Shown here piece by piece: positions 34,339 to 62,323 of a DNA stretch of 64,000 nt (positions are counted from its first letter, which is position 1; each line of letters starts with the position of its first letter). A model generated the notes under the pieces. The model worked only from the letters and a program-made list of their open reading frames with translations, was not told where the DNA came from and did no database searches. Made by a program: the position numbers and the translations under genes. Origin of the DNA: an uncultured Candidatus Saccharibacteria bacterium (GTDB lineage Bacteria; Patescibacteriota; Minisyncoccia; Phycocordibacterales; UBA5272); NCBI GenBank assembly GCA_964512315.1, contig CAZEIK010000004.1, forward strand, positions 8,198 to 72,197. Direction: 5' to 3'.

Positions 34339-35547
34339 TTATTGTATAGATGTAGTTAAGTTGTACATCGGCATCAATACTGAAGCAACAAGAACTCCTA
34401 CACCCAATCCCATTACCACAATCATCACCGGCTCAAGTAACGCCAAGGTGCTCTCTATTGTCTGCTCCAACTCTCTCTTATAGAATTGTGACAGATTTTT
34501 AAGCATGTAGCCTAGCTCACCCGTCTCTTCTCCTATGCGTGTCATCTGAACCATAACTGTTGGTATTAGAGGCTCTTCACTGAATGCAGCAGATAATAAT
34601 TTACCTTGTCTTACTTTACTCTCGACTCTTTCTAGCATTTTTCTAAATACATAATTATCTACAACTTCACTTGTAATCTGTAACGCTTGGACTATAGGTA
34701 CACCTGAGGCGAGCATTGTCTCAATGTTATCCGCCATACGAGAAAGGTATAACTTTTTATACAGCTGATTCAAAGCTGGCACTCTAAGTTTGAAGTTGTC
34801 GAAATATGCTTGACCGTTAGGTGTCTTAATATAAGTCACTAAGTAGTAACCAAGTAACGCCAAGCCTGGTAATATCATCCACCAGTAACCCAAAACGAAA
34901 TGACTAAAATCAACTATGAATTGTGTGTAAGTTGGCAATGTCTGACCTTGCTGAGTTAACAGTTCAGCTAATTTTGGTAATACAAAAATAGACATTATTA
35001 ACATTACTACTATAAAAGTAAAAATAACAAATGTTGGATACGTTAAAGCTTTCTTTGTCTTTTGAATAAGCTGGTAGTTACGATCTAAATAATCAGCTAG
35101 GTATTCTAATACTTCACGCAACTTACCAGACTCTTCTCCGGCATGCACCATCGATACATAAAAATTATTAAATATGTCAGGATGTCTTGCTAAAGCTTTA
35201 TACACTGGTATACCAGACTGTATATCGTCAGCAATAATTGTAAACCTTTTGCCTAGGGCCTTAGAAGGGCTCTCTGAAGCCATCAACCTGAAAGTTCTTA
35301 AAGCTTGTATTCCACCTGATATAAGTGTAGCTAACTGCTTTGAAGCTATTACAACATCTTTCTCAGTTATTCTCTCTGTTAATTTTTCTAACCAGGTAGA
35401 AGAAAATTCTGATTGAGACTCCTCAACTGAAACTATAATATTACCTTCACCTTGAAGTTTGGAAATAAGATCATCTTTAGAAGCGCTATCCATCACGCCT
35501 TCTATCATCTGAGAATTACTATTAAAGACTTTGTATTTAAACTTCAT
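34339..35547 (-). CDS. pilC: Type IV pilus assembly platform protein (GspF family)
   Basis: 402 aa. Duplicated GspF domains with 3 TM segments. Confidence 0.85.
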   Translation of the reverse strand: MKFKYKVFNSNSQMIEGVMDSASKDDLISKLQGEGNIIVSVEESQSEFSSTWLEKLTERITEKDVVIASKQLATLISGGIQALRTFRLMASESPSKALGKRFTIIADDIQSGIPVYKALARHPDIFNNFYVSMVHAGEESGKLREVLEYLADYLDRNYQLIQKTKKALTYPTFVIFTFIVVMLIMSIFVLPKLAELLTQQGQTLPTYTQFIVDFSHFVLGYWWMILPGLALLGYYLVTYIKTPNGQAYFDNFKLRVPALNQLYKKLYLSRMADNIETMLASGVPIVQALQITSEVVDNYVFRKMLERVESKVRQGKLLSAAFSEEPLIPTVMVQMTRIGEETGELGYMLKNLSQFYKRELEQTIESTLALLEPVMIVVMGLGVGVLVASVLMPMYNLTTSIQ

Positions 35548-35548
35548 G

Positions 35549-36607
35549 TTATATCATCTCTCCAAAAACTTTTGGATTTTTAGCTAATCTCATAGCAGAC
35601 TCTAATGTTATGTCGCCTCTTCTGACCAGATCAGAAAGACATGTATCAAAATTAATCATGCCATTTTCTGAGCCAGTCTCTATAACTGTATCTATTTCGA
35701 AAGTTCTCTTCTCTCTTATTAGGTTCTGTACTGCAGGTGTGGCAACTAGTAGCTCATAAGCCGGAACAAGGCCTCCACCTATTTTAGGTATCAAGCGTTG
35801 TGAGAATATACCCAGGAGAGATGCCGCAAGTTGACTTCTAATCTGACCCTGTTGCTCCGCTGGGAAGCTGTCGATAATACGATCAATTGTCTGGCTTGCT
35901 GAGTTAGTGTGCAAAGTTGAGAATACCAAGTGTCCAGTCTCAGCAGCAGTCACTGCCGCTCTCATTGTTTCTGTGTTACGCATTTCACCAATTAATAACA
36001 CGTCCAAGTCTTGTCTAAATGCAGCATGTAGGCCTGACTCAAAATCTATCGCATCGAAACCAACTTCACGTTGCATAATGTAACTATTCTTAGATTCATA
36101 TATATATTCTATCGGGTCTTCTATTGTTACAATCATTTTTCTGTCTTTCTGATTAATGTCATCAATCATTGCAGCAAGAGTTGTCGTCTTACCTTGACCT
36201 ACAGGACCTACAACTAAAAAGAAACCTTGCTTTCTGTGCGCAAAATTAAGTAACACCTCTGGCAAGTTAAGCTCTGGCAATGACTTAATTTTTGTTATAA
36301 GTCTCATCACTACCGCAATACTACCCTTCTGGAAAAAAGCATTACCACGAAGGCGGTACTCGCCACGATGAGTGTAAGCAAAGTCTAACTGTTGATTATG
36401 AATCAAAAGTTCATACTGTGTGTCATTAATCATCTCACGCAAGCAGCCAAGTGTGTCAGTCGGATCTAGAACTTTCAATTTTGTAAGAGGCAACACTTCA
36501 CCGTGCACCCTAATAGCTGGATATACACCACTCATAAGGTGTATATCTGAGCCAGATTCTTTGACTAGGGTCATTATTATAGTATCGAGTAATTGAGCGC
36601 TATCCAT
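35549..36607 (-). CDS. pilT: Twitching-motility (retraction) ATPase
   Basis: 352 aa. Walker A GPVGQGKTTT, Asp box, His box (TLHT). Confidence 0.85.
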   Translation of the reverse strand: MDSAQLLDTIIMTLVKESGSDIHLMSGVYPAIRVHGEVLPLTKLKVLDPTDTLGCLREMINDTQYELLIHNQQLDFAYTHRGEYRLRGNAFFQKGSIAVVMRLITKIKSLPELNLPEVLLNFAHRKQGFFLVVGPVGQGKTTTLAAMIDDINQKDRKMIVTIEDPIEYIYESKNSYIMQREVGFDAIDFESGLHAAFRQDLDVLLIGEMRNTETMRAAVTAAETGHLVFSTLHTNSASQTIDRIIDSFPAEQQGQIRSQLAASLLGIFSQRLIPKIGGGLVPAYELLVATPAVQNLIREKRTFEIDTVIETGSENGMINFDTCLSDLVRRGDITLESAMRLAKNPKVFGEMI

Positions 36608-36634
36608 TCAAAGAGTATATAACGCCCTAGGCAG

Positions 36635-38389
36635 TTAAAGTGAAGTGATTTCCACAAATGGAATCTTACCGTCCATACACTTCAGAACAGCATCTTGCTG
36701 TATAGAGACAGCTCCACGATTCGCAGCCAAGGCCCAGATCTCTTCGTCAGTCTTTCCATCCAGAATAGCCCTCTGGACATCGTCTTCTATATAGAGAGTC
36801 TCCACAACCGGCATGCGCCCTTTAAGACCCGTTGGACTCATCGGTGAAGGTATCGCTTCATGTAAAGGTCTGTCTAAATTCAAATCTTTTTTAAACTGTT
36901 CTGGATAATCTTTAAAGATCTCATCTACTAATGCCTTCTTTCCAGAGTCCATTTCAATAGGACTCTCAGAAGAGGGGCTTATCTTTCTAACCAGACGCTG
37001 AGCTACCGCAAGACACAATGTTGGCGATATAAGATAAGGGTCAACACCCATATCTTTTAAACGAGACACTACACCAGACGCATTGTTAGTGTGTATAGTA
37101 GAAAATACCAAGTGCCCCGTAAGCGCGGCCTGTATTGCAAGTTGAGCTGTCTCGGCGTCACGAATCTCTCCAACCATTATAACGTCTGGGTCCTGACGCA
37201 ATATAGAGCGAAGACCTGTTGCAAAAGTGTAACCTATCTCAGGAAAGATTTGGGATTGGGTCACATCACCAAGATTATACTCAACTGGATCTTCTAGAGA
37301 CACAACATTTCTAGTCTTTCTATCCAGCTCATTAAGCATCGAGTATAGCGTCGTTGTTTTACCTGATCCTGTTGGTCCTGAGATTAGTATCATTCCATAA
37401 GGTCTCTCTAGTGCGCGGCGTATGTCTTTGAGATGAGCCTCAGAGAAACCTATTTCATTAAGTGGCTTGACCCCTCTAAAGCTGTCCAAAATACGTATCA
37501 CCACCTTCTCACCATAATATGCCGGCATAACCGATACGCGGAAGTCGACTTTGTGGCTGTCCAACTTAGTAGAAAAACGTCCGTCTTGTGGCTTACGTTT
37601 CTCATCTAATCTCATATTGGCAAGAATTTTAAACCTAGCGACTATGGTCTGCTCTACATATGCCGGGAAACTTATAACCTCTTGCAACTCTCCGTCTATA
37701 CGCATACGCACACGAAGTGTGGATTCTCCTGGTTCAACGTGAATATCAGAAGCAGACTCGTCTATTGCATGCCTTATGAGAGTGTTAACTATTACTCCCA
37801 CTGACTCGTTCTTTAGTTCCGGCGTAATCTCTCCAGATACAGATGTTAAGTCTAGATGCTCCTCTTCATCCGCTGGACCATCAGAATCTTTTGTAACCTG
37901 CTCCAACAAGAGACTTGGCGCCTTCAGATTAATAGACTGATCTCCGACTTGAACCTTTTGAGAATCAATATAACTCTCAAGACCTTTTTGATACTGCTCA
38001 TAACTAATAACAACTAATCTATATCTTATATTTTTTGTCGTAAAAGTATTCTGCAATATATCTAACGCGTCAGGCATCTCAGGGTCAACTATACCGACTA
38101 AAATATGATCTCTTTTTTGAACTGTCTCTATGGGGATTGAATGAGTACGCCTAACTATCTCTTCAGGCAATAATGCTGCAGCTTCTGGGTCTACAAAAAT
38201 ATCTTTCTCATAAGTAGACAACCCATACATCTCAGCTCTTTTGGCTCGCAAAATATTCTGATCGACACCACGCAACGCTAAGGCCTCGTCTATTGTAGAA
38301 GTCTCACCATTAGTAAAAGACAGCTCCGCATCACGAGCAACCAAATCATTAATTATTCCAGCTCGTACTAATTCATTAATGATCAGCAT
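36635..38389 (-). CDS. pilB: Type IV pilus assembly (extension) ATPase, GspE family
   Basis: 584 aa. Walker A GPTGSGKTTTLYS and GspE N-terminal domains. Confidence 0.88.
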   Translation of the reverse strand: MLIINELVRAGIINDLVARDAELSFTNGETSTIDEALALRGVDQNILRAKRAEMYGLSTYEKDIFVDPEAAALLPEEIVRRTHSIPIETVQKRDHILVGIVDPEMPDALDILQNTFTTKNIRYRLVVISYEQYQKGLESYIDSQKVQVGDQSINLKAPSLLLEQVTKDSDGPADEEEHLDLTSVSGEITPELKNESVGVIVNTLIRHAIDESASDIHVEPGESTLRVRMRIDGELQEVISFPAYVEQTIVARFKILANMRLDEKRKPQDGRFSTKLDSHKVDFRVSVMPAYYGEKVVIRILDSFRGVKPLNEIGFSEAHLKDIRRALERPYGMILISGPTGSGKTTTLYSMLNELDRKTRNVVSLEDPVEYNLGDVTQSQIFPEIGYTFATGLRSILRQDPDVIMVGEIRDAETAQLAIQAALTGHLVFSTIHTNNASGVVSRLKDMGVDPYLISPTLCLAVAQRLVRKISPSSESPIEMDSGKKALVDEIFKDYPEQFKKDLNLDRPLHEAIPSPMSPTGLKGRMPVVETLYIEDDVQRAILDGKTDEEIWALAANRGAVSIQQDAVLKCMDGKIPFVEITSL

Positions 38390-38401
38390 ATATTCAGTTT
38401 A

Positions 38402-38728
38402 CTACGGAGCAAAAGGATTTTCTCTTCTTGAATCCCCTACAGGGCAAACATCGTTAGTGCCACAAACTATAACCTTAGTAGAAGACATACTTCTTATATT
38501 CTTTATAAAGTTCTCTATATCTACACCAGAGAATGAAATATTATTATCTTTAAACTGAGTAACTGTTCCAAAAAACGTCCCTTGCAAAGCAGCCGGCTTA
38601 ACTGGTGTATCGTCATTATATTGAACATACACAGCATAACCAATCAAAGTCAAAACTATTATTAATACACCTCCAGATATAACAAGTCTTACATTATTTA
38701 AAAAATTTAAATTTAAATTATTGTTCAT
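38402..38728 (-). CDS. Small membrane-anchored hypothetical protein inside the pil operon
   Basis: 108 aa. N-terminal TM segment (LVISGGVLIIVLTLIGYAVYV). Sits between pilO and pilB. Confidence 0.4.
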   Translation of the reverse strand: MNNNLNLNFLNNVRLVISGGVLIIVLTLIGYAVYVQYNDDTPVKPAALQGTFFGTVTQFKDNNISFSGVDIENFIKNIRSMSSTKVIVCGTNDVCPVGDSRRENPFAP

Positions 38729-38730
38729 AG

Positions 38731-39309
38731 TTAATTCTTATATTCATAAGCGTCAAAGACTACATTAAACTTCTGTCCTTTTTCATCTTGATTTGTGGTG
38801 TCAGAGCTTTCTTTTGAAGTAAAAGACATAGAACTAATCCTGTATAATTGTAAGCTGGTCTCTAAGGACTTCAAGAAAGATTTAAATTTTACATAATCAC
38901 CCGATAAGCTTAAGTTAATTTTGTAAGCGCTAAGTTGAGACAGATTATCTGGCGAAGGGTATTTAGAATAAGTTATATCATCGAGAGATATCCCTGACTT
39001 TGCGGCCATTACAGATATATTGTTGAACAGTCTTGGTATATCTACAGAGGTTGGTATCATCTGCTCAATCTGGCTTTTTGTTTCATTGCTTATATTAGAA
39101 AAGTTCTCATTTTCAAACCCCGCTCTCTTTTGTAAGTCTTTAGCAAGAGAAAGTTCTTGCTGTTTCTGATCTAACTCTTTTTTGATTTGTAATACAGAAT
39201 CAACTCCTAATACATTTTCTCCTTTTCCAGCGTATAGAGGGAAAGCTAGGAACCATAAAATAAGTCCTCCAGCTAAAAATAATCCTAAATTTATATATGT
39301 TTTGTTCAT
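38731..39309 (-). CDS. pilO: PilO-like pilus assembly protein
   Basis: 192 aa. TM segment, then coiled coil, then an alpha/beta domain. Position matches a pilMNO operon. Confidence 0.55.
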   Translation of the reverse strand: MNKTYINLGLFLAGGLILWFLAFPLYAGKGENVLGVDSVLQIKKELDQKQQELSLAKDLQKRAGFENENFSNISNETKSQIEQMIPTSVDIPRLFNNISVMAAKSGISLDDITYSKYPSPDNLSQLSAYKINLSLSGDYVKFKSFLKSLETSLQLYRISSMSFTSKESSDTTNQDEKGQKFNVVFDAYEYKN

Positions 39310-40037
39310 AGATCTATTGAGGTTGTTGCACTGCTTTTAGTTGTACTAGTTGGCGTTGTACCGACTTTTGGTTGTGTTACAGTGTTGTTGTTTGTTGTAT
39401 TACTTGGCTGATTAGTGTTAACAATATTAGAAGTATCAACAACACCAGAAGATCTAAAGCTTGGAGTAAACTCATCCTCTTTTAGGCTGCCTGCCACGTC
39501 TATCTGTATGTCGAACATTTTATTTCCAAAAGAATCCTTGCCCAGCGAGGTCATCTGAACTGATTTAAACAATTTACCGTACTCAGTATTCTTAAGCTCA
39601 TCCATTTGCTTTGCAACTGAAGCATAATCTTGAGCAATAGCAGAGAGCGATAATCTGTGACCAACCCCTGGCTGATAGCTAAGATTGAAACTACTATAAT
39701 AAACTCCCTTTTCAACGCTATCACTGAGAGCTGAGAGTATCGTTGTTGGGTATGTGTGATTCTTCAAGAGCTTCTCTATTAATAGAACCTTATTACCAAA
39801 AGTAAGCATGTCGTTAAGCGGGTAGCCTTCTAGACTTTTTTCTATATTCATCACCTCACCTGACATCTGTGTAATTTGAGACTTCAAATATATACCATAA
39901 CCATAAGCAAGAAGGCTGCAGAATATAGACACACCAACAAAAACACAACCTAATATGAAAAATGGGTCTGTCGGCTTAGCTTCTGCTACAGGTGAAGCTG
40001 GCTTAGCTACAAATGTTGTTGTTCTTAGTGGTGGCAT
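39306..40037 (-). CDS. pilN: PilN-like pilus assembly protein with a Thr/Asn-rich C-terminal tail
   Basis: 243 aa. Short cytoplasmic N-terminus, one TM segment, periplasmic domain, low-complexity NTNQPSNTTNNNTVTQPKVGTTPTSTTKSSATT tail. Confidence 0.55.
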   Translation of the reverse strand: MPPLRTTTFVAKPASPVAEAKPTDPFFILGCVFVGVSIFCSLLAYGYGIYLKSQITQMSGEVMNIEKSLEGYPLNDMLTFGNKVLLIEKLLKNHTYPTTILSALSDSVEKGVYYSSFNLSYQPGVGHRLSLSAIAQDYASVAKQMDELKNTEYGKLFKSVQMTSLGKDSFGNKMFDIQIDVAGSLKEDEFTPSFRSSGVVDTSNIVNTNQPSNTTNNNTVTQPKVGTTPTSTTKSSATTSIDL

Positions 40038-40040
40038 AAA

Positions 40041-41093
40041 TTAAATTAATCTCGACATTGCTAGGCCTATTGCATGTGAGAAGCTTGGAGAAATATCAAT
40101 CAAGTTTTGTCTTAAAGATTCTGGAACTTCAACTCTTTCAAAAGGTCTAGATACTTTTACCTCTACTCCTAACTCTTGGGCGAATAATTCTTGCAAACCT
40201 TTTGTACGGGCCCCGCCTCCTGTTAACCAGACCTCAGTACATTTTGTAGTATACCTCGTCTCAAAGCGAGAACGTATGTGTATAACTTCGTCAATTACCC
40301 TCCTAGCAGCAAATACAGCCACATCTCGGAGTAGCGGCATATTGTTAGAACCTAGAATGCCGAACTCTTTTTTAGTTAACTCCGCTTCCGCAAAAGTCAT
40401 ACCCATAGACTCACGAATATGCTCAGTAATACTGTACACACCTTTCATTGTACTTTCTGCGCCATACAAGACACCCTCGTATACAAAAGCCACACTTGTT
40501 AATGTTGCACCAAGGTCTATGATCAGTGTTGGATTATTCTTATCTATTGGTGTCGCGCGTAATGTGCCGAATATGCCCGGCTCAATAGTAACCTCAGCCT
40601 CTGGGACCAAGTTGTCGACCACTCTGTGCATCATCTCTACCGCTGACTGCTTAGCAGCAAGAACTAATACATTAATAGTGTCGTCTTTCTGATGTGGATG
40701 TGGTGGCAGCTTCTCATAAGATACAGACAAGTCAGCATAAGGCACATTCATATATCTACGAACCTCTATCGGCACAACTGTATCCAGTATTTCTTCTGCA
40801 GCTCGCGGCACTGTTATATGCAGTAATTGGCACGCACTCATAGGGAGGCCTACTGTAATGTTTTTAGATATTGCTTTGGAAGCTTTGTATATGTCAGTAA
40901 CTGCGAATTTTAATTTGTCCTCACCGAGCTTGGTTATCTCACCCGACTCACGTCCTCCATAGGTACCTACCATCTCTTCTGCATAAGTACCCAACTCTAG
41001 GACATTACCTTTTTTATATAACTCTACAAGCTTGATACCTGTGTCACCAATATCCAAGCCTACATTCATATTGGATTGTGTATCGAATAGCAT
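40041..41093 (-). CDS. pilM: PilM (actin-like ATPase of the pilus alignment complex)
   Basis: 350 aa. N-terminal VGLDIGDTGIKLVEL phosphate-1 motif of the actin/HSP70 fold. Confidence 0.85.
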   Translation of the reverse strand: MLFDTQSNMNVGLDIGDTGIKLVELYKKGNVLELGTYAEEMVGTYGGRESGEITKLGEDKLKFAVTDIYKASKAISKNITVGLPMSACQLLHITVPRAAEEILDTVVPIEVRRYMNVPYADLSVSYEKLPPHPHQKDDTINVLVLAAKQSAVEMMHRVVDNLVPEAEVTIEPGIFGTLRATPIDKNNPTLIIDLGATLTSVAFVYEGVLYGAESTMKGVYSITEHIRESMGMTFAEAELTKKEFGILGSNNMPLLRDVAVFAARRVIDEVIHIRSRFETRYTTKCTEVWLTGGGARTKGLQELFAQELGVEVKVSRPFERVEVPESLRQNLIDISPSFSHAIGLAMSRLI

Positions 41094-41485: not shown

Positions 41486-43450
41486 TTAGAATCCTAATAA
41501 TGCATCTAGCGCTCGCGTAAATATTGCATCGCCTCCCAGCTTAGCCATCTCACCTTTAGGTAATCTAAAGAAATGTCTAATCATTGCAGATCTTCTTCTG
41601 CGCATCATACGACGAGCCTTCTTCATAAGCTTCTTCTTTAACTTGATTTCTTTTTCATTAGACTCAGGCATATCATTGATCCACTCTCTTGCCTTCGCAA
41701 TGTCTTCTTTAGGGTCACCGAGCGACTCGTTAACATTTTTCTGATCATGATAAGTGAGACCGCTCTTGTGTTTTTCAAAAGGTGTGTACAATTTTTGTAT
41801 CCATCCACCTTTTTCTTGTACAGCTTCTTGTTTAGCTTTGAATTCGAGCTTGCTATTAGCCTCCTCCATATTTATTTGTCTTATCTTGTCTTCAATCTTT
41901 TCAATAACCTCTTCTGCAGCATGGAGCTTCTCCATAACTTCTTTTTCTTTGGCGACTCTCTTTTTATCTACTGCTTCTTTTAATTTTGCTATGCGAGATT
42001 CGGCTTTGTCCAAAATGCTTCTAATCATTGTTCTGGTTGGCTCATTCTCAGGCGTATCAGGCAAAAGGTCTAATTCATCTTGAGCCTCTCTTACCGCTAT
42101 TTCTTCTGCATCTACTAAAATAGTAAATGTCGCCTTTTGCCCATCATCAAAGGACTTGCCTATATCCCTTTTATCACCTTCTTCTTTTACTTGTTTCTCT
42201 ATTAGTACAAGCCTATCAGAAATCTGTCTAGCATTTTCTCTCTGGTCTTTTGCCTCTGGTCTACCCTCAACTTTTTCTCTTAATTGAAAGATCAAGCTAG
42301 CCGCGAACCCTAACCTTCTCTCTAACTCGCTTATCTGTGCGGCAGTCTTTATATCTATTGGAGCTACTGCTGACATACCAAGAACCTTCTCTGTTAAAAG
42401 AGTTTGTATTTCTACCGACACAGCCTCTTGCGCAGCCAACTCATTAATAAATGGCTCCTTATCTGCGTCATCCAACTTCTTATCTTTTTTAAGTGCTTCT
42501 TCTAGTCTTGCTTTTACTTTTGATAAGTCCGCCTCCACTTTATCTAAGCCTTCATTAAGATGATTCCTGGTCTCTGCAAATTCATCGAAAGAATGCTCGA
42601 GCGCGTGCTCAACTCTTTTTAATAGTGGACCAGCACCATATGCAGCATCTCTAGATAAGAAAGCCTCCCAGTTCATCTCTTCTCCCGCAGGAACGTCTTC
42701 GAACTGTTTTCTAATTTTAAGAACTTGGTCCATTAGTCCTTTTTGCGCAGGGTCATCTACGTCTAACTTCATCTTGCCCTCCTTCTTGCCAAGCTTCTTA
42801 GCGTTACCAATTGCTGCCGCATACTCATACAACACACCCTCAAGCTCCACAGCGAACAACTCTTTCTCCGCATCCGAAATACTGCCGCCATGCGCAGCAG
42901 ATTCTATTCTCTTCATTAATGTTACGAGCTTGGTAAGAGATGTGCCTAATGTTCCGGTTACATCCCTAAGAAGCTCAGCTTTCTTTTTCGCTAAGGCTTC
43001 TGGACTACCGTTTTCAATACTTTTCCAAACTGAAGCAAAATCCAAATCATACTCTCTTCTTTTTGCTTCTAAAAACTTATTGATATCAGTTTTGAGTGTC
43101 ACCAACCCAGCCGAGTCAGCCCTCTTTTGATCTTCATTAAGACTGGCGTCAGATCTAACATTTTCTTCCGCGGTAGATATACTACTAAAAACACTCTGGA
43201 CATTATTTAAAAGGCCTTCAATACCTATCAGAATTTGAGTCCTAGCATCTTCTTCACTTATTTCTTTTGCGTCTACTTTTCCTTTATTTTCTTTTAGAAG
43301 AGTAGCCAAACTTGTCCCGAAAGCATTAATTTGATTTTCATAATTTCTTCTAGCTTCTTTTGTATGCGGGCCTCCTTCTGGTTGTTTCTTTTTTTTATTG
43401 CCTGGATTGTTGCTTGGATTATTCTGTTGTGGTGCTCCTCCTAATGCCAT
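41486..43450 (-). CDS. Large coiled-coil hypothetical protein with a Lys-rich disordered N-terminal tail
   Basis: 654 aa. N-terminus PGNKKKKQPEGGPHTKEARR. Extensive charged heptad-like sequence. Arg-rich C-terminus (MMRRRRSAMIRHF). Confidence 0.5.
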   Translation of the reverse strand: MALGGAPQQNNPSNNPGNKKKKQPEGGPHTKEARRNYENQINAFGTSLATLLKENKGKVDAKEISEEDARTQILIGIEGLLNNVQSVFSSISTAEENVRSDASLNEDQKRADSAGLVTLKTDINKFLEAKRREYDLDFASVWKSIENGSPEALAKKKAELLRDVTGTLGTSLTKLVTLMKRIESAAHGGSISDAEKELFAVELEGVLYEYAAAIGNAKKLGKKEGKMKLDVDDPAQKGLMDQVLKIRKQFEDVPAGEEMNWEAFLSRDAAYGAGPLLKRVEHALEHSFDEFAETRNHLNEGLDKVEADLSKVKARLEEALKKDKKLDDADKEPFINELAAQEAVSVEIQTLLTEKVLGMSAVAPIDIKTAAQISELERRLGFAASLIFQLREKVEGRPEAKDQRENARQISDRLVLIEKQVKEEGDKRDIGKSFDDGQKATFTILVDAEEIAVREAQDELDLLPDTPENEPTRTMIRSILDKAESRIAKLKEAVDKKRVAKEKEVMEKLHAAEEVIEKIEDKIRQINMEEANSKLEFKAKQEAVQEKGGWIQKLYTPFEKHKSGLTYHDQKNVNESLGDPKEDIAKAREWINDMPESNEKEIKLKKKLMKKARRMMRRRRSAMIRHFFRLPKGEMAKLGGDAIFTRALDALLGF

Positions 43451-53773: not shown

Positions 53774-54214
53774 TTATTCGTGATGATAAGCTGAGCCATT
53801 AAGTATCATATAACCACGGTATATCTGCTCATACAGCATCAACTTACACATAGCATGGGGCCAAACCATAAGACCAAAAGACATTGTGTAATTAGCCCTG
53901 TGTTGCAATTCTGCATCAACACCATAAGCTCCACCAACAATGAATACCAATCTCTTCTGCGAGTCTTGCATTCTATTATCTATCAACTCTGCAAATTCTT
54001 CACTTTTCAAATTACTCCCTCTCTCGTCTAATAATACAACATAATCATCTGATTTGATTAGCTTCATCATTCTTAGTGTTTCGTCTGACTTGTCACTGTG
54101 CGATAAGATTTCTTCTTCTACATTAACCCATTTTGAAAGTCTTTTCTTGTATTCATTTATATCATCCTGAAATGGTATGGACTTTTTAGAGACAGAAATA
54201 ATTAATATTTTCAC
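53774..54214 (-). CDS. rlmH: 23S rRNA (pseudouridine1915-N3)-methyltransferase RlmH (SPOUT)
   Basis: 146 aa. MKILIISVSKK…EYKKRL N-terminus and size typical of RlmH. Confidence 0.75.
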   Translation of the reverse strand: MKILIISVSKKSIPFQDDINEYKKRLSKWVNVEEEILSHSDKSDETLRMMKLIKSDDYVVLLDERGSNLKSEEFAELIDNRMQDSQKRLVFIVGGAYGVDAELQHRANYTMSFGLMVWPHAMCKLMLYEQIYRGYMILNGSAYHHE

Positions 54215-54278: not shown

Positions 54279-54794
54279 TTAGCAATTACAAGTTTTAGAA
54301 CCGTCCTTGTGGTCACACATTCCTTTTGGACAGCCACATTTACCTCCCCAAAGAGAGTATCTACCTGGTCCTGAGAATATCATTCCAAATGACACAGCTA
54401 GAAGTAATAACTGATACTCGTAACCATTACCCATCATGCTGTAGCCATTAGCAAAGTGAACTTTGAAAATTGCTACAAGCATAACAATGGTAAGCAGAAC
54501 TGCTGCATACATTGTATACACTCCTAGAATTAGAAATGCTCCACCGATAACTTCTACAAGGCCAACGAACATCACCATGTTAGATCCACCAAGTCCGATT
54601 GAAGTGAAGAATGGCGCAAACATATCCGGATTAACAACTTTGCCGTATCCGTGGAATACAAAAGCAATACCAGCAACAACGCGAACGATCAGTAAGAATA
54701 CATTATGATTATATTGTTTTAAAAATTGCATAAGTGAAAGTAAGTCTATTAGACTTGAGTAAAGTATATAACATTTTTGTGTTATAATTGTCAC
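54279..54794 (-). CDS. DoxX-family membrane protein with a Cys-rich C-terminal tail
   Basis: 171 aa. DoxX motif VAGIAFVFHGYGKV. Tail CGCPKGMCDHKDGSKTCNC. The true start may be the internal Met at 54731. Confidence 0.6.
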   Translation of the reverse strand: MTIITQKCYILYSSLIDLLSLMQFLKQYNHNVFLLIVRVVAGIAFVFHGYGKVVNPDMFAPFFTSIGLGGSNMVMFVGLVEVIGGAFLILGVYTMYAAVLLTIVMLVAIFKVHFANGYSMMGNGYEYQLLLLAVSFGMIFSGPGRYSLWGGKCGCPKGMCDHKDGSKTCNC

Positions 54795-54797
54795 AAT

Positions 54798-55862
54798 ATG
54801 AAGATTTTGGCAATAGAAACAAGTTGCGACGAAACTGGAGTATGTATAATAGAATTCAAAAATAATTCTAACAATTTTAAAGTTCTATCTAATCTTCTCA
54901 TCTCTCAGATCGATATACATAAGGAATTCGGTGGCGTCTACCCTAATATGGCAAAGAGAGAGCACAGTAAGAACTTACCAATTCTAATACAAAAGTCACT
55001 ATCCGAAGCCAAAATCAAAATAGAAAATCTAGACGCAATAGCTGTAACCAATGGTCCTGGACTAGCTCCAGCCTTGTGGGTAGGAGTAGAAGAAGCGAAG
55101 AAGCTTTGCAAGGAACATAACATACCATTGTACGGCATCAATCACATGGAAGGGCATATTTACGCCTCTCTTGTTGAGGAGATAAAGAAAAACGAATACA
55201 AAATAACAGAACCAAAAATGCCAGGTATAGCATTGCTAATATCAGGCGGACACACCGAGCTAGTATTCATGCCAAGACTTGGTAAGTATCAAAAAATAGG
55301 AGAAACATTAGATGACGCAGCCGGTGAAGCTTTCGACAAGGCGGCCAGATCTCTTGGATTAGAATATCCTGGCGGACCAAAGATTTCTAAGTTAGCAGAA
55401 AGCGCTAGAAAAAGAGGTGTAGTAACTCCGGAGAATTTAAGACTGCCGAGACCAATGATTAACTCAAAGGACTTAAACTTTTCTTTTTCTGGATTAAAAA
55501 CAGCCGTAATGTACGCGGCACAGAAAACAGAAATTGACGACGACACAAGAGAGGTATTCTGCATGGAATTCGAGAACTCAGTGACAGACGTTATAACTAA
55601 AAAGTTGGAGACTGCTACCTTTCTATACAACGCTGAGTCAGTAATAATAGGTGGTGGCGTGTCAGCTAACACACACATAAGATCTGCTATTAATGAGGTG
55701 TGCAAAAGGGACTCGATTGATCTGTATTTACCTAAAAAGGACCTCTCTACAGATAATGCATTGATGATAGCCATAATCGCCATGGTCAAAGTTCTGAACG
55801 GCGCTACACCTGACTCAAGTGATACACTGGCCGCACAAAGCAATCTATCTATAGCAAATTAA
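54798..55862 (+). CDS. tsaD: tRNA N6-adenosine threonylcarbamoyltransferase TsaD (Kae1/Gcp family)
   Basis: MKILAIETSCDETGVCI N-terminus and HMEGH metal-binding motif. Start placed at ATG 54798 rather than 54777. Confidence 0.85.
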   Translation: MKILAIETSCDETGVCIIEFKNNSNNFKVLSNLLISQIDIHKEFGGVYPNMAKREHSKNLPILIQKSLSEAKIKIENLDAIAVTNGPGLAPALWVGVEEAKKLCKEHNIPLYGINHMEGHIYASLVEEIKKNEYKITEPKMPGIALLISGGHTELVFMPRLGKYQKIGETLDDAAGEAFDKAARSLGLEYPGGPKISKLAESARKRGVVTPENLRLPRPMINSKDLNFSFSGLKTAVMYAAQKTEIDDDTREVFCMEFENSVTDVITKKLETATFLYNAESVIIGGGVSANTHIRSAINEVCKRDSIDLYLPKKDLSTDNALMIAIIAMVKVLNGATPDSSDTLAAQSNLSIAN

Positions 55863-58507: not shown

Positions 58508-60346
58508 TTATAAACTCTTGACCATGTACGTATTCTGTAGTGTAAAGCCTCTTTTTTTGTAATATTCGCGTACACCCACTCCTGAAATAATAGTGAGTTT
58601 TTTGTATTTTAGATTGTGTTTGTTGTCACCGCGCGCAATCTCCTCGGCACGAGCCAGTAACTTCTTACCCATACCTGTATGTTGTGACTGATTACCTTCC
58701 TCACCCACTCTTTTCATGGTTCCATATACATGCAGCTCGCGCACCAATGCTGAGTCTGACAGCAGGTCGTCTATTTGATATGCATCAGTCTTACTTAGAT
58801 TATCCTTCTCAAATTGCAAGCTCTCCTCTTTCCATTTCTTAATCCCCCAATTTGCATCACTTTGTATAAAAGAAGGATTTAAATTAGAATTATCTCGTAG
58901 GGCCCCATCCGATAGGCTATGGGGTAAAGAGGAATTATAATTTGAATCTTTCTTTGGTAACCTAAGCCTTAGAAACCCTGCCAACTTATTTTCCTTTTTA
59001 TTCTCAAATTGTAAGAAACACTCAAAGGAATGTCTGGTCTCATACCAAGTTTCAGTTAATTCAAAGTCATTAGGGTCGACTTCTGCATCACGTATTTCGC
59101 GCGCACGAATGTCTACCTGCTGTACACCACGAGCCTTCTGATACTTGTCTACATCTTCACGCAGGTTACTTTTCTTGCTACCGATGATTATATAGTCTGC
59201 AGGTATGTCGCGTATAACACGAATCAGTCTCGTATAATTCGGAACATAGCTCTCACAGTCAGCGAGCACTCTAGTCAGTAACTCATCACTGTACGCTGTA
59301 TAATCTATTTTCTTCTGAGTTACTAGCTTATACAGGAGAGAACCTTTCAAGACCATATTCGGATATATTTTCATCATGTCTGGATGATGATCTAGTCCGT
59401 CGTACAGATTCTTGAACATCAACACATCCATCTCGGGTGTGGATGTGGGCAAATTAGGCATCATGTGATACACAACCTTGAACCCATAATCACGAAGCAT
59501 TTCAGAACCAGCCGCAACAGCCTCTGCGGTCATCTCACGCTTATTAAATGCTAGCACCCCATTATCAAGATGCTGCACACCGAGCTCAACCTTGGTAACA
59601 CCGAGTAGTCTCATCCACTTTAACTCAGACGGGATAATATAATCAGGTCTAGTCTCAACAGAAAGTCCAATAATACGCGCATGTGCCGACTCATTAATTT
59701 TCTGTAACTCTTCTAATGTATAATTATTATCTTTTTCTATGAACTCTCTACCCTCTTCTACAGCACGCCAATTGTTACATGCACGAAATGCCTCACGAGT
59801 GAATTCCTCTTGATATTCTTTTTTATAAAAATTAAATGTGCCACCGATAAAAATCATCTCTATCTTATCCACGGGGTGGCCGTTCATCGTGAGGGCACGC
59901 AATCTAGTCCATATCTGCTTATACGGATCGAATCTTTGCATCAGAGCGCGTGCTGCTGCTGGCTCACGAGAAAGATATGACTTTGGCATATTCTTCTCAG
60001 TAGGACAGTATATACAACGCCCTGGACAAGTGTATGGCTTGGTTAGAAGTGACACTACCGCAACTCCCGAGTTACTACGAACTTTTAATCTCTTCAAGAT
60101 GTTCTCAGTCTTTATGTCCCTACTCGCCACACCTTCTGCAACCAACTCATTGTACAGCTCTAACAGTTCTGGGTTGTTAGGCATCTGCCCTTTGGCGTCA
60201 ACTTTGTTATTAATCTTTTCGCGCACAGCTATCCAACGTGTACGCCAATAATCATCACGTGCGACTAGACGCTTGAGCTTGGCAACATCTACCTCTGTCT
60301 TAACATTTTCAAAAATATTAGAAATCATTTTATTTAGATACCCCAA
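58508..60346 (-). CDS. elp3: Bacterial Elp3-family protein (radical SAM + GNAT; tRNA U34 carboxymethyl-modification enzyme homolog)
   Basis: 612 aa. Radical-SAM cluster motif CPGRCIYCP (CxxxCxxC). C-terminal GNAT block QHTGMGKKLL…IISGVGVREYYKKRGF…YMVK matches the Elp3 C-terminus. Confidence 0.8.
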   Translation of the reverse strand: MGYLNKMISNIFENVKTEVDVAKLKRLVARDDYWRTRWIAVREKINNKVDAKGQMPNNPELLELYNELVAEGVASRDIKTENILKRLKVRSNSGVAVVSLLTKPYTCPGRCIYCPTEKNMPKSYLSREPAAARALMQRFDPYKQIWTRLRALTMNGHPVDKIEMIFIGGTFNFYKKEYQEEFTREAFRACNNWRAVEEGREFIEKDNNYTLEELQKINESAHARIIGLSVETRPDYIIPSELKWMRLLGVTKVELGVQHLDNGVLAFNKREMTAEAVAAGSEMLRDYGFKVVYHMMPNLPTSTPEMDVLMFKNLYDGLDHHPDMMKIYPNMVLKGSLLYKLVTQKKIDYTAYSDELLTRVLADCESYVPNYTRLIRVIRDIPADYIIIGSKKSNLREDVDKYQKARGVQQVDIRAREIRDAEVDPNDFELTETWYETRHSFECFLQFENKKENKLAGFLRLRLPKKDSNYNSSLPHSLSDGALRDNSNLNPSFIQSDANWGIKKWKEESLQFEKDNLSKTDAYQIDDLLSDSALVRELHVYGTMKRVGEEGNQSQHTGMGKKLLARAEEIARGDNKHNLKYKKLTIISGVGVREYYKKRGFTLQNTYMVKSL

Positions 60347-60438
60347 AAATATATGAGGGACTTAAATAAAACTTACGCTTATATCATTAAGCTTTATTAC
60401 TTATACATTAACATACTTTTATGCTATAGTAAAGACAA

Positions 60439-61092
60439 ATGAATTCAGACTTCGACCCAATAAAGCATACAGCTGATGGATACAATAAAATAGCCAATGA
60501 ATGGGACCAGACTAGGAAACAGTCTTGGGATGAGGTCAACGTTTATATTGAAAAGTATCTGAAAGACGGCCAGAAAATAATAGATATTGGATGCGGCAAT
60601 GGGCGTGCGCTATTTCTCTTGGAAAAATACAAAGATTTAGAATACCTAGGAATAGATAATTCGGAAAAGTTAATAGAGAAAGCGAAAGATAACTTTCCTG
60701 ATTACCAATTCGAACATTTTGATGGTCTCAACTTTTCTAAATACAAAAAAGATTATTATGATGTTGCTCTACTGGTTGCTGTAATACATCACATACCTGA
60801 AGGCATGATTATAAACTGGCTCATAAATATAAATTCTCTTCTCAAAAAAGATGGAGTTATTTTTGTGACGAGCTGGGATGTTATGAGTGGTAAGAGCAAG
60901 TCATATCTAGACGAAGAAAAAAAAGGGCTGCTGCCATTCATGAGTCATAAAAATATAAGATTCGTAAAGTCTTATACAAAGGACGAATTAGAAAAATACC
61001 TGAAGTTGGCTGGATTCAAAATTTTAGACGGAGGATACGCTAGCCGACAGAGTGGTGAGAAAAATATTTTTATTGTTGGTCAGAAACTCTAA
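60439..61092 (+). CDS. Class I SAM-dependent methyltransferase
   Basis: 217 aa. Motif I IIDIGCGNGRAL. Rossmann-MTase pattern. Transcribed divergently from elp3. Confidence 0.7.
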   Translation: MNSDFDPIKHTADGYNKIANEWDQTRKQSWDEVNVYIEKYLKDGQKIIDIGCGNGRALFLLEKYKDLEYLGIDNSEKLIEKAKDNFPDYQFEHFDGLNFSKYKKDYYDVALLVAVIHHIPEGMIINWLININSLLKKDGVIFVTSWDVMSGKSKSYLDEEKKGLLPFMSHKNIRFVKSYTKDELEKYLKLAGFKILDGGYASRQSGEKNIFIVGQKL

Positions 61093-62323
61093 TTGTATAA
61101 ATATCAGGTACACCACTTTGACCTTTTAGATAAACTTTACCTCCGTTAAGCCAAGAGTTCTGATTGAAATAAAAGTTGAGCAACCATCTGTCTCCATTAG
61201 GTATAGCGTCGTATACGCCTGGCTTGTACTGACTCTGCAAGGCAGTATAGTTATCTGGATTAGAACAATTACCTTCACCGCTTCTCTCGAGACAAATTTC
61301 TGTTGGTGAATTCATGTCTGTCTTATACGTAAAATACAGAGAATTAACAGGACTTCTCAATCTATAGAAAGTTCCAGATGAAGCAGACAACTTAACACTT
61401 GTAGTTGTTTGTGTTTGAGGTGCTGGCGCTGTATTGTTATTAGTCGCTGGTATAACTGTAGTCTGCGTTGTTGTATTTACAACTTTGGGTGCTGAGTAAG
61501 TAACCACAACTCCCCTTCTCGCTTTTTCTATAGAAGCTTGATCGCCTCTACAAGTAATCGCTGCTATTGAAGCTCTTGTGTTAGGGCCAACATAACCGCG
61601 AACATCAACACCATGTCTCGATTGCCAAAGTCTAACAGCGGCCTCAGTGTTGCGTCCGAAATATCCAGTTGGCCACATCTCCATATATCCAGTATCAGAC
61701 AAGAACTTCTGCAGTGTCAGAACTTGTGACGCACGAGATCCATACTCCATGAACTGTGTCATAACAGTGCAACGATAATTAATATTCTGATCTGAGACTA
61801 TTCCAGATGGCATAGACGAATACACATTGCCGCCCGAGTTACCATTATTAGAACCCCCGTTGTTACCACTACCTGTATCTGAAAAATTATCTTCACAAGC
61901 ACTCAATACTGTTGGCGTAATATTGTCGTCTTCACCTAACAAGTTAGTGTAGAAACTATAAATAGATTGCCTCTCGCTTGTATTAAAAGTTGCCGCCTCA
62001 ACATTACTGTAAACGTCATCAAAAATTGCACCCGAGAATCTAGATGACGCACAATTAGTAGCTGCAGCATCTCGCTTTGCAACTTCTACTGCCTGATCTC
62101 TCGTCTGAGGATTGATGGTTAAAATATATTGCAAAGACCTAGCAACTTGAGCAAGCGCGCTCACTTGAGGAGTTGAAAGCTTATAGGCACTAGCCATGTT
62201 AGTTATCATAGACTCAACCTCATCTCTTATACCATTATTATTACTATCCCCAGCAACGGACTGAGCCGAGACAAAACTAATCGCAACAAAAGAAACAAAA
62301 ATTCCTAATAGAAACTTATTCAT
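61070..62323 (-). CDS. Secreted protein with a peptidoglycan-binding (PG_binding_1-like) domain
   Basis: 417 aa. Signal peptide. G/N-rich linker. LTLQKFLSDTGYM…GYFGRNTEAAVRLWQSRHGVDVRGYVGPNTRASI. Confidence 0.55.
   Translation of the reverse strand: MNKFLLGIFVSFVAISFVSAQSVAGDSNNNGIRDEVESMITNMASAYKLSTPQVSALAQVARSLQYILTINPQTRDQAVEVAKRDAAATNCASSRFSGAIFDDVYSNVEAATFNTSERQSIYSFYTNLLGEDDNITPTVLSACEDNFSDTGSGNNGGSNNGNSGGNVYSSMPSGIVSDQNINYRCTVMTQFMEYGSRASQVLTLQKFLSDTGYMEMWPTGYFGRNTEAAVRLWQSRHGVDVRGYVGPNTRASIAAITCRGDQASIEKARRGVVVTYSAPKVVNTTTQTTVIPATNNNTAPAPQTQTTTSVKLSASSGTFYRLRSPVNSLYFTYKTDMNSPTEICLERSGEGNCSNPDNYTALQSQYKPGVYDAIPNGDRWLLNFYFNQNSWLNGGKVYLKGQSGVPDIYTIRVSDQQ

What the first reader, a model, noticed from the sequence alone, without database searches (positions are those of the whole stretch)
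58508..61092. Bacterial Elp3 (radical-SAM/GNAT) divergently paired with a class I SAM methyltransferase: a possible bacterial cm5U→mcm5U tRNA wobble-modification pair
58508..60346 carries the Elp3 radical-SAM cluster motif (CPGRCIYCP). It also has the diagnostic Elp3 C-terminal GNAT block (…IISGVGVREYYKKRGF…YMVK). Elp3 homologs are rare in bacteria. The divergent neighbour (60439..61092) is a small class I methyltransferase (IIDIGCGNG). In eukaryotes and archaea the Elp3 product cm5U is methylated by the class I MTase Trm9, so the pairing suggests a functional link. This is inference from genomic context only.
Basis: partly seen in the sequence, partly recalled or inferred. Interest (0 to 1): 0.55.

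Follow-up and report, generated by a model that had tools for sequence, protein, structure and literature searches.

The report
Bacterial Elp3–Trm9 wobble-uridine gene pair
A candidate-phyla-radiation bacterium carries, head to head, the two enzymes that eukaryotes and archaea use to turn the tRNA wobble uridine into mcm5U (Elp3 and a Trm9-type methyltransferase), and this pair is conserved across very many such bacteria although reviews state that bacteria lack Trm9 and almost all lack Elp3.

Summary

- **Elp3.** It scores 458 bits on TIGR01211 against a cutoff of 350. The three radical-SAM cysteines and the QHxGxG acetyl-CoA motif are intact.
- **Methyltransferase.** The gene at 60439..61092(+) looks generic in Pfam, but its family is orthologous to Trm9:
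  - hhalign against fungal Trm9 gives probability 100 %, E 5e-45, end to end.
  - Yarrowia Trm9 is the top PDB hit for the family profile.
  - 8 of 10 functionally mapped Trm9 residues are identical in the window protein.
- **Linkage.** The two genes are linked across deep divergence:
  - 74 of 80 species-level genome loci with the methyltransferase have Elp3 within 10 kb, about 68 of them divergent and adjacent.
  - 59 of 71 evaluable metagenomic Elp3 loci have the methyltransferase within 5 kb.
  - Nothing else in the neighbourhood is conserved.
  - One locus adds MnmA directly after Elp3.
- **Selection.** Both genes are under purifying selection (dN/dS 0.03–0.08).

The most likely function is U34 → cm5U (Elp3) → mcm5U (Trm9-like). 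The methyltransferase probably works without Trm112, because two core hydrophobic interface positions are charged in the CPR family. No biochemistry exists. This is a new member of a known kind, of moderate interest.

The parts
58508..60328 (-). Elp3 (radical-SAM + KAT/GNAT tRNA U34 carboxymethyl-forming enzyme), 606 aa from the ATG (612 aa if the upstream TTG at 60346 is used)
   Evidence: TIGR01211 ELP3 scores 458 bits against a cutoff of 350. Pfam finds Radical_SAM and Radical_SAM_C. PDB Elp3 hits reach 6e-92 over both domains. The exact 606-aa protein is in NCBI and the gene call is. dN/dS is 0.034 against a 97.8 %-identical relative.
60002..60028 (-). Radical-SAM [4Fe-4S] cluster motif CPGRCIYCP (C107, C111, C114 in 612-aa numbering; Cx3Cx2C)
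   Evidence: Translation checked. The three cysteines are invariant in 72 of 72 CPR Elp3s.
58667..58684 (-). KAT-domain acetyl-CoA binding motif QHTGMG (Q555 H556 G558 G560)
   Evidence: Translation checked. Q, H, G and G are invariant in 72 of 72 CPR Elp3s. The region aligns to the MinElp3 KAT domain.
58781..58939 (-). Clade-specific, length-variable insertion in the KAT domain, between the conserved FLRLR and (V/I)RELH(V/T)YG strands, with a conserved NWG[IL]xKW core
   Evidence: Only 1 of the 72 Elp3s from the loci has residues here. In close relatives the FLRLR-to-RELHVYG interval is 56-102 residues, against 23-28 in other CPR Elp3s.
60329..60438 (.). 110-nt AT-rich (24 % GC) divergent intergenic spacer, presumed to hold the promoters of both genes
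   Evidence: Sequence. One sigma-70-like match (TATACA-17-TATAGT with TG) lies at 60402..60430(+), but the number of matches in the region is not above the shuffled expectation.
60439..61092 (+). Trm9-family class I SAM-dependent methyltransferase (217 aa), predicted tRNA (cm5U34) carboxyl O-methyltransferase
   Evidence: Class I methyltransferase domains. The family profile's top PDB hit is YlTrm9 5cm2_Z at 102.5 bits. hhalign against fungal Trm9 gives E 5e-45. The fungal Trm9 HMM scores the window protein 73 bits. The AF2 model has pLDDT 93.9 and its best Foldseek hit is 5cm2_Z. dN/dS is 0.075.
60577..60606 (+). SAM-binding motif I, IIDIGCGNGR (fungal Trm9: DVGCGNGK)
   Evidence: Translation checked. 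D49/G51/C52/G53/G55/R56 are invariant in the family. The motif aligns to the Trm9 motif.
60481..61065 (+). Span holding the Trm9 substrate and catalytic residues. Y15, R26, D73, H117, H118, W146, R174 and N209 equal ScTrm9 Y18, R29, D72, H115, H116, W145, R241 and N271. F167 stands for W168 and V176 for Y243.
   Evidence: Residue roles come from Letoquart 2015 (PMC4678810). The mapping comes from the joint alignment and hhalign. Codons were checked.

Best explanation
The two genes form a two-step tRNA wobble-uridine (U34) modification module of the eukaryotic/archaeal type, here in a CPR (Patescibacteria) bacterium.

Step 1: stand-alone Elp3 uses its KAT domain to take the acetyl group from acetyl-CoA. 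Its radical-SAM domain then attaches that group to C5 of U34, giving cm5U. The mechanism is inferred from Elp3 family membership and intact motifs.

Step 2: the divergently transcribed Trm9-family methyltransferase uses SAM to esterify the carboxyl group, giving mcm5U. This is inferred from orthology, conserved substrate-binding residues and conserved gene linkage.

Head-to-head placement on a shared 110-nt AT-rich spacer would allow co-regulation (inferred). Unlike eukaryotic and haloarchaeal Trm9, the CPR enzyme probably works without Trm112 (inferred from the loss of two hydrophobic interface residues). In some lineages a 2-thiolation by MnmA may follow, giving mcm5s2U (suggested by one locus).
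For: Elp3 identity and intactness.

Methyltransferase is Trm9 family:
- Profile against PDB puts YlTrm9 top at 102.5 bits; the next hit scores 84.4.
- hhalign gives probability 100 %, E 5e-45, 207 columns.
- The reciprocal fungal Trm9 HMM scores 63-124 bits on 80 Elp3-linked methyltransferases and 24 bits or less on all other ORFs.
- 8 of 10 mutationally defined Trm9 residues are identical in the window protein; R, D, W, R and N are invariant in 53 of 53 family members.
- JGI's own annotation names many family members TRM9 or ALKBH8.

Linkage:
- 74 of 80 species-representative loci have Elp3 within 10 kb, about 68 of them divergent and adjacent.
- 59 of 71 evaluable Elp3 loci have the methyltransferase within 5 kb, 52 of them divergent and adjacent.
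- Median pairwise identity among the paired proteins is only 37 % (methyltransferase) and 48 % (Elp3).
- No other neighbour is conserved in more than 19 loci.
- MnmA lies directly downstream of Elp3 in L092.

Other:
- Purifying selection on both genes.
- Archaeal precedent: Elp3 and Trm9 genes cluster in S. solfataricus, and HvoTrm9-Trm112 makes mcm5U.
- Trm112 independence: YlTrm9 V59 is K/R in 48 of 53 and F78 is D/E/N in 48 of 53 family members. No YcaR/Trm112 homologue was found in 1.97 Mb of loci.
Against: - No nucleoside or enzymatic data exist for any CPR organism.
- Two of the ten functional Trm9 positions differ in the window protein: W168 is F and Y243 is V. In yeast, W168A was inactive and Y243A lost about 10-fold activity.
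- Fold similarity alone does not separate Trm9 from METTL6 or RPA2492-type methyltransferases.
- 12 of 71 evaluable Elp3 loci lack the methyltransferase nearby, and 5 methyltransferase loci lack Elp3 nearby. The link is therefore strong but not obligatory.
- The Trm112 negative is weak. Only ~12-20 kb per genome was searched, with one E. coli query, and several interface positions (P110, F116, D117) are retained.
- No U34 tRNA gene lies in the window, so substrates cannot be examined.
Confidence: 0.75

Rival explanations
1. The methyltransferase is a generic small-molecule or other-substrate class I methyltransferase (UbiE/UbiG/CmoB/Tam-like) that sits next to Elp3 with no functional link.
For: Pfam and NCBIfam give only generic methyltransferase hits, all below curated family cut-offs. 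JGI labels some homologues 'UbiE'. Foldseek scores to many methyltransferases are nearly equal.
Against: The divergent pair is conserved in about 85 % of 80 species-level loci at about 37 % methyltransferase identity, while all other neighbours vary. The Trm9 profile tests are specific. Trm9 substrate residues are conserved.
Confidence: 0.04
2. The pair does modify U34, but the end product is not mcm5U. The methyltransferase might act on a different Elp3-derived intermediate or a different atom. Alternatively, as in yeast and Haloferax trm9 mutants, the cm5U side chain could be channelled mainly into ncm5U or another derivative.
For: Two substrate-pocket positions differ in the window clade (F167, V176). 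The ncm5U branch and the fate of cm5U are unresolved even in yeast and Haloferax. The window clade's Elp3 carries a 56-102-residue KAT insertion of unknown effect.
Against: The residues modelled to hold the cm5U carboxylate and the uracil ring are all conserved: Y18, R241, N271, H115 and W145 equivalents. W to F keeps an aromatic side chain. The Y243 position varies across the whole CPR family.
Confidence: 0.12
3. Elp3 and the methyltransferase act together on a non-tRNA substrate (protein lysine acetylation, rRNA, or a metabolite), in line with the older view of Elp3 as a histone/protein acetyltransferase.
For: The KAT domain is a GNAT fold. The downstream gene on the Elp3 strand encodes an O-antigen-ligase-like membrane protein.
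Against: Published biochemistry shows that only tRNA triggers acetyl-CoA hydrolysis by bacterial, archaeal and eukaryotic Elp3 (Lin 2019). The downstream membrane gene is not conserved in other loci. The partner is a Trm9-type tRNA enzyme, and MnmA is adjacent in L092.
Confidence: 0.03
4. The CPR Trm9-like enzyme still needs a Trm112-type activator encoded elsewhere in the genome, so the functional unit has three parts, as in eukaryotes and Haloferax.
For: All characterised Trm9 enzymes need Trm112. Small Trm112/YcaR proteins are widespread in bacteria. Part of the interface (P110, F116, D117 equivalents) is conserved.
Against: Central hydrophobic contacts V59 and F78 are Lys/Arg and Asp/Glu/Asn in about 90 % of the family. 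No Trm112 homologue lies next to the pair in ~165 loci.
Confidence: 0.25

Closest known systems
Eukaryotic Trm9/ALKBH8-Trm112 tRNA (cm5U34) methyltransferase (ScTrm9, YlTrm9; PDB 5CM2)
   Same: Same class I fold. There is end-to-end profile homology (E 5e-45). Both share the N-terminal Y-x2-IA-x2-F-x2-TR-x3-W helix motif, the GCGNG motif I, the HH, W, PW and R-Y-Y-H motifs and the C-terminal N. 8 of 10 functional residues are identical.
   Different: The host is bacterial. The protein has no RRM or AlkB fusion. Two core hydrophobic Trm112-contact positions are charged, and no Trm112 was found nearby. W168 is F and Y243 is V in the window clade. The gene is physically paired with Elp3, which is not the case in eukaryotes.
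Archaeal Elp3 + Trm9 (Haloferax volcanii HvoTrm9-Trm112 making mcm5U; Elp3/Trm9 gene cluster in Sulfolobus solfataricus)
   Same: Stand-alone Elp3 without Elp1,2,4-6 plus a Trm9 orthologue. Physical clustering of the two genes has precedent in S. solfataricus. One of the 80 genome loci is labelled Pacearchaeota (L022).
   Different: The organism here is bacterial (bacterial RpoB, LigA, LepA, MurJ, TsaD). The head-to-head arrangement is conserved across many CPR lineages. HvoTrm9 requires Trm112, whereas the CPR family probably does not.
Dehalococcoides mccartyi Elp3 (DmcElp3; PDB 5L7J/5L7L), the only characterised bacterial Elp3
   Same: Bacterial stand-alone Elp3 with the same rSAM and KAT architecture (1e-86).
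   Different: The window Elp3 keeps the long N-terminal region of ~80 residues (15 K+R) that DmcElp3 lacks and that Lin 2019 link to tRNA affinity. It has a clade-specific KAT insertion. I found no report of a Trm9 partner for DmcElp3.
Canonical bacterial U34 pathway MnmE-MnmG (+MnmC, MnmA) giving (c)mnm5(s2)U
   Same: Same target nucleotide and the same biological purpose: an xm5U34 side chain for reading split codon boxes. MnmA co-localises with the pair in one locus.
   Different: The enzymes and chemistry are unrelated: FAD, folate and GTP on one side, radical SAM, acetyl-CoA and then SAM methylation on the other. No MnmG or MnmE was seen in the window or in 1.97 Mb of loci, but this is not a genome-wide test.

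Membership tests
Elp3 (TIGR01211; radical SAM/KAT tRNA U34 cm5 synthase) | Passes the curated full-length family model | tested here: met
   458.4 bits against a cutoff of 350.
Elp3 (TIGR01211; radical SAM/KAT tRNA U34 cm5 synthase) | Three cysteines coordinating the radical-SAM [4Fe-4S] cluster | tested here: met
   C107, C111 and C114 in CPGRCIYCP are invariant in 72 of 72 CPR Elp3s. The spacing is Cx3Cx2C, against Cx4Cx2C in MinElp3.
Elp3 (TIGR01211; radical SAM/KAT tRNA U34 cm5 synthase) | C-terminal KAT/GNAT domain with an acetyl-CoA binding Q/RxxGxG motif | tested here: met
   QHTGMG at 58667..58684 is invariant in the family. Residues 531-611 align to the MinElp3 KAT domain. Pfam Acetyltransf_1 itself does not hit the window protein, but it does hit some relatives.
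Elp3 (TIGR01211; radical SAM/KAT tRNA U34 cm5 synthase) | tRNA-dependent acetyl-CoA hydrolysis and cm5U34 formation | not testable with these tools
   Needs biochemistry.
Trm9/ALKBH8-type tRNA (cm5U34) O-methyltransferase | Class I SAM methyltransferase fold with motif I and the SAM-binding Asp (ScD72) | tested here: met
   Pfam methyltransferase domains. AF2 model with pLDDT 93.9 and best Foldseek hit 5cm2_Z (TM 0.81). D73 is invariant.
Trm9/ALKBH8-type tRNA (cm5U34) O-methyltransferase | Specific full-length sequence homology to Trm9 rather than to other class I methyltransferases | tested here: met
   hhalign E 5e-45. Trm9 is the top PDB hit by 18 bits. The reciprocal Trm9 HMM is specific. 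No tree with broad outgroups was built.
Trm9/ALKBH8-type tRNA (cm5U34) O-methyltransferase | Residues shown by mutagenesis to be needed for activity or tRNA binding (ScTrm9 R29, D72, H116, W145, W168, R241, Y243, N271; H115 partial; Y18 modelled) | tested here: inconclusive
   8 of 10 are identical in the window protein. W168 is F (43 of 53 family members keep W) and Y243 is V (28 of 53 keep Y). The family as a whole meets the feature; the window clade deviates at two positions.
Trm9/ALKBH8-type tRNA (cm5U34) O-methyltransferase | Obligate heterodimer with Trm112 | tested here: inconclusive
   Interface positions V59 and F78 are charged in about 90 % of the family, while others are kept. No Trm112/YcaR homologue was found in the window or in 1.97 Mb of loci. 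Whole genomes were not searched.
Trm9/ALKBH8-type tRNA (cm5U34) O-methyltransferase | Functional coupling to Elp3/Elongator (the substrate cm5U is an Elp3 product) | tested here: met
   Conserved divergent gene pair: 74 of 80 and 59 of 71 loci. This is genomic linkage, not biochemical coupling.
Trm9/ALKBH8-type tRNA (cm5U34) O-methyltransferase | Converts cm5U34 to mcm5U34 | not testable with these tools
   Needs an enzymatic assay or LC-MS.
UbiE/UbiG/CmoA/CmoB/Tam small-molecule or cmo5U methyltransferases (considered and rejected) | Reaches the curated family score | tested here: not met
   The best NCBIfam hits score 24-44 bits against cut-offs of 103-297.

The most novel reading that the evidence does not exclude
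CPR/Patescibacteria as a group use the archaeal/eukaryotic Elp3-Trm9 route for U34, making mcm5U (and mcm5s2U where MnmA is present), in place of the canonical bacterial MnmE-MnmG pathway. They would do so with a minimal two-protein system in which Trm9 has become independent of Trm112. This would be the first mcm5U in Bacteria and a domain-level exception in the decoding apparatus of a major bacterial radiation. It would also supply naturally stand-alone, soluble Elp3 and Trm9 enzymes for mechanistic work.
Probability: 0.3. Interest if true: 0.7.

Novelty: new member of a known kind. Interest (0 to 1): 0.5.

Why it matters
**What reviews in the field say**
[quoted passage not shown] **What the data here show**
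- A large bacterial radiation carries both Elp3 and a clear Trm9 orthologue as a conserved gene pair.
- The methyltransferase family has about 1,750 clusters at 50 % identity with E ≤ 1e-30.

**If the chemistry is confirmed**
1. mcm5U-type wobble modification would extend to Bacteria.
2. It would raise the question of whether CPR replaced MnmEG, and how the pair was acquired or inherited relative to DPANN and other archaea.
3. It would offer a probably Trm112-independent Trm9 and a full-length stand-alone bacterial Elp3 with the tRNA-binding N-terminus as simpler model enzymes.

The genes themselves are orthologues of known enzymes with the expected chemistry, and databases already label the CPR Elp3s. 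This is therefore an extension of a known pathway, not a new system.

Tried and rejected
1. **Single-sequence searches of the methyltransferase** (Pfam, NCBIfam, phmmer against PDB) could not separate Trm9 from generic methyltransferases. Family profiles were needed.
2. **Fold search** (Foldseek against PDB) put Trm9 first, but METTL6, 3E23 and 3L8D were statistically equivalent. I rejected it as a discriminating test.
3. **A recollection I corrected.** I had recalled PDB 6F5Z as HvoTrm9; one search shows it is Hvo_0019-Trm112, so no comparison with a solved archaeal Trm9 was possible.
4. **Trm112 search.** phmmer and tblastn with E. coli YcaR found nothing in the window or the loci. This is a weak negative.
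5. **MnmG/MnmE search** in the held loci found nothing specific. Only about 2-3 chance hits would be expected if the genes were universal, so it does not show absence.
6. **Promoter and terminator scan** of the spacer and flanks gave match counts no higher than shuffles.
7. **Literature searches** for Elp3 or Trm9 in CPR/Patescibacteria, and for MnmG in Patescibacteria, returned nothing relevant. Glatt 2016 was not available.
8. **KAT insertion.** I first read it as unique to this window (1 of 72). One search shows it is a length-variable feature of the window's clade.
Profile-profile and reciprocal HMM tests were used instead.
Full report
**1. Observation**

The two ORFs are real and lie as described.
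- The minus-strand ORF ending at 58508 encodes Elp3.
- It passes NCBI's curated ELP3 model (TIGR01211, 458 bits, cutoff 350).
- It has Pfam Radical_SAM and Radical_SAM_C domains.
- It aligns over both the radical-SAM and KAT domains to solved Elp3 structures: archaeal MinElp3 6IAD at 6e-92, bacterial DmcElp3 5L7J at 1e-86, and eukaryotic Elp3 at about 1e-74.
- The motif CPGRCIYCP is at 60002..60028 and the acetyl-CoA motif QHTGMG at 58667..58684.
- In an alignment of 72 full-length CPR Elp3s, C107/C111/C114 and Q555/H556/G558/G560 are invariant.
- The likely start is the ATG at 60328 (606 aa), not the TTG at 60346. The 606-aa protein is an exact NCBI entry, and an independent gene call uses that start. 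The divergent spacer is then 110 nt at 24 % GC.

The plus-strand ORF 60439..61092 is a 217-aa class I SAM methyltransferase with motif I IIDIGCGNGR.

**2. Organism and surroundings**

The window is bacterial.
- It encodes bacterial RpoB, NAD-dependent DNA ligase, LepA, MurJ, GatA, type IV pilus genes, Tgt, TsaD and RlmH.
- Named relatives of both proteins are Patescibacteria/Parcubacteria. The window's own species is not among the GTDB representatives returned, where the best methyltransferase match is 40 % identical.
- Immediate neighbours are not conserved elsewhere: an O-antigen-ligase-like TPR membrane protein downstream of Elp3, and secreted PG-binding and LTD/PKD proteins beyond the methyltransferase.
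- The window has five tRNA genes, none with U34.

**3. What the methyltransferase is**

On its own the protein looks generic.
- Pfam gives only broad methyltransferase domains.
- NCBIfam hits (Tam, UbiG, CmoB and others) are all far below their cut-offs.
- phmmer against PDB puts Yarrowia Trm9 fourth, at a score similar to unrelated methyltransferases.

Family-level tests are decisive.
- A database search found about 350 homologues. Most are ~230 aa and ~35 % identical, and many are named 'TRM9' or 'ALKBH8' by JGI.
- A profile of 53 of them (A1) makes YlTrm9 (5CM2) the top PDB hit at 102.5 bits. The alignment is near full length and includes the C-terminal PW...RYYH region. The next hit scores 84.4 bits.
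- hhalign of A1 against 22 fungal Trm9s (A2) gives probability 100 %, E 5e-45, 207 aligned columns, end to end.
- In the reciprocal direction, a fungal Trm9 HMM scores 63-124 bits on 80 Elp3-linked methyltransferases (73 bits for the window protein). Every other ORF in the window and ~1.2 Mb of loci scores 24 bits or less.
- The AF2 model is confident (pLDDT 93.9) and its best Foldseek hit is 5CM2 (TM 0.81, rmsd 2.4 Å). Several other small methyltransferases score nearly the same, so fold alone is not discriminating.

**4. Active site**

Letoquart et al. 2015 mapped the ScTrm9 residues needed for activity or tRNA binding:
- R29, D72, H116, W145, W168, R241, Y243 and N271 are required.
- H115 has a partial effect.
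- Y18 was modelled at the cm5U carboxylate.

In a joint alignment (consistent) the window protein has:

| ScTrm9 | Y18 | R29 | D72 | H115 | H116 | W145 | W168 | R241 | Y243 | N271 |
|---|---|---|---|---|---|---|---|---|---|---|
| Window | Y15 | R26 | D73 | H117 | H118 | W146 | F167 | R174 | V176 | N209 |

- Eight of the ten positions are identical.
- F167 replaces W168; 43 of 53 family members keep W.
- V176 replaces Y243; this position varies across the family and 28 of 53 keep Y.
- R, D, W, R and N are invariant in all 53 family members.
- All residues modelled to hold the uracil ring and the cm5 carboxylate are therefore present.

**5. Linkage to Elp3**

Starting from the methyltransferase:
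- A scan of one genome per species returned 80 loci. Nearly all are CPR lineages (Parcu-, Gracili-, Peregrini-, Falkow-, Portnoy-, Magasanik-, Komeili-, Berkel-, Uhr-, Kuenen- and Lloydbacteria, plus Saccharibacteria-labelled MAGs), and one is Pacearchaeota.
- 74 of the 80 carry Elp3 within 10 kb, and about 68 have the same head-to-head arrangement as the window.
- One of the six without Elp3 had only 114 nt of upstream sequence, so it could not be evaluated.

Starting from Elp3:
- In metagenome contigs, 52 of 71 evaluable loci have the methyltransferase divergent and adjacent.
- 59 of 71 have it within 5 kb.

Supporting points:
- Clustering all ORFs within 6 kb shows that only these two families are conserved (80 and 72 loci). 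The next family is in 19.
- The paired proteins are deeply diverged: median pairwise identity is 37 % for the methyltransferase and 48 % for Elp3.
- Two long contigs found by exact-protein look-up show the same pair.
- In L092 the genes are packed as Trm9-like(-) | Elp3(+) | MnmA(+). The U34 2-thiouridylase starts 1 nt after Elp3 ends.
- Against a 95-98 %-identical relative, dN/dS is 0.075 for the methyltransferase and 0.034 for Elp3.

**6. Mechanism proposed**

*Shown:*
- Both enzymes are intact members of their families.
- They are genetically linked across a large radiation.

*Inferred from family knowledge:*
- Elp3 makes cm5U34 from acetyl-CoA and SAM.
- Trm9 methylates cm5U to mcm5U.
- The CPR pair should therefore make mcm5U34, and mcm5s2U where a thiolase acts.

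*Inferred here:*
- Of the six YlTrm9 residues forming the hydrophobic core of the Trm112 interface, V59 is K/R in 48 of 53 family members and F78 is D/E/N in 48 of 53. In the window protein five of the six positions are charged and only Y107 is not: K46, E68, E92, K101, K103, Y107.
- No Trm112/YcaR homologue was found in the window or in 1.97 Mb of loci.
- The enzyme therefore probably does not need Trm112. This is a prediction, not a result.

**7. Comparison with what is known**

- The pathway and both families are well known in eukaryotes and archaea. Elp3-Trm9 gene clustering was noted in S. solfataricus.
- For bacteria the literature I could search says otherwise:
  - DmcElp3 is 'a rare example of bacterial Elp3s'.
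  - No bacterial homologues of the Trm112-dependent methyltransferases could be detected.
  - A 2026 paper mentions 'numerous bacteria' with Elp3.
- No paper in the library links Elp3 or Trm9 with CPR.
- Public annotation pipelines already name CPR proteins 'elongator complex protein 3' or 'Elp3', and some partners 'TRM9'. The information is therefore latent in databases.

**8. Verdict**

- This is a new (bacterial, CPR) member of a known two-enzyme pathway.
  - the breadth and strength of the conserved pairing;
  - the probable Trm112 independence.
- Whether CPR lack MnmEG, which would mean pathway replacement, could not be tested. No MnmG or MnmE was seen in the sampled DNA, but the sample is too small to conclude.

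Noticed in passing
window 58781..58939 (-), within Elp3: The window's Elp3 clade has a length-variable insertion of 56-102 residues between the KAT-domain strands FLRLR and RELHVYG, where other CPR Elp3s have 23-28. It has a conserved NWG[IL]xKW core. In several relatives (P0269, P0280, P0290, P0311) it also has a Cys-rich CGGxCGGNCVC-like element that the window protein lacks. Its function is unknown.
   Followed up: partly
L092:680-4046: A compact three-gene cluster: Trm9-like methyltransferase (-), Elp3 (+) and an MnmA-type tRNA 2-thiouridylase (+; 31 % identical to E. coli MnmA, 4e-52). It suggests mcm5s2U in that lineage. It was seen in only 1 of ~165 loci.
   Followed up: partly
L022 (Pacearchaeota-labelled MAG); L001-L006: The same divergent pair occurs on a contig labelled DPANN archaeon. 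It also occurs on long contigs whose neighbours include archaeal-looking families (MJ0043_C, DUF763, an intein-containing RtcB), although one of the proteins is named 'Parcubacteria' in NCBI. This could reflect CPR-DPANN gene sharing or mis-binning.
   Followed up: no
genome loci L007-L086, within 6 kb of the pair: Sub-clade-level neighbours of the pair include serine hydroxymethyltransferase GlyA (19 loci), FolD (13), a NIF3/DUF34 protein (17), a small 88-aa EF-Tu-domain-2-like protein (19) and a LOG/LDcluster4 protein (14). None is present in the window.
   Followed up: no
window 12127..13392 (-), 54777..55862 (+), 53774..54214 (-): Other translation-apparatus modification genes lie in the window: Tgt (queuine tRNA-ribosyltransferase, another position-34 enzyme), TsaD (t6A37) and RlmH (SPOUT rRNA methyltransferase). 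No MnmE, MnmG or MnmA is in the 64 kb.
   Followed up: partly
window 34339..41093 (-): A type IV pilus gene block (PilC-like T2SSF, two T2SSE ATPases, PilM), as is typical of CPR genomes. The 654-aa ORF at 41486..43450 has no Pfam match.
   Followed up: no
window 61070..61092: The 3' end of the methyltransferase gene overlaps by 23 nt the 3' end of the convergent gene 61070..62323 (a PG_binding_1 secreted protein). The same overlap is present in relatives L167, L168 and L173.
   Followed up: no
window 60002..60028 (-): CPR Elp3s use the canonical Cx3Cx2C spacing (CPG[KR]C[ILV][YF]CP). The archaeal MinElp3 aligned has one extra residue (CPHGKCIFCP, Cx4Cx2C).
   Followed up: partly
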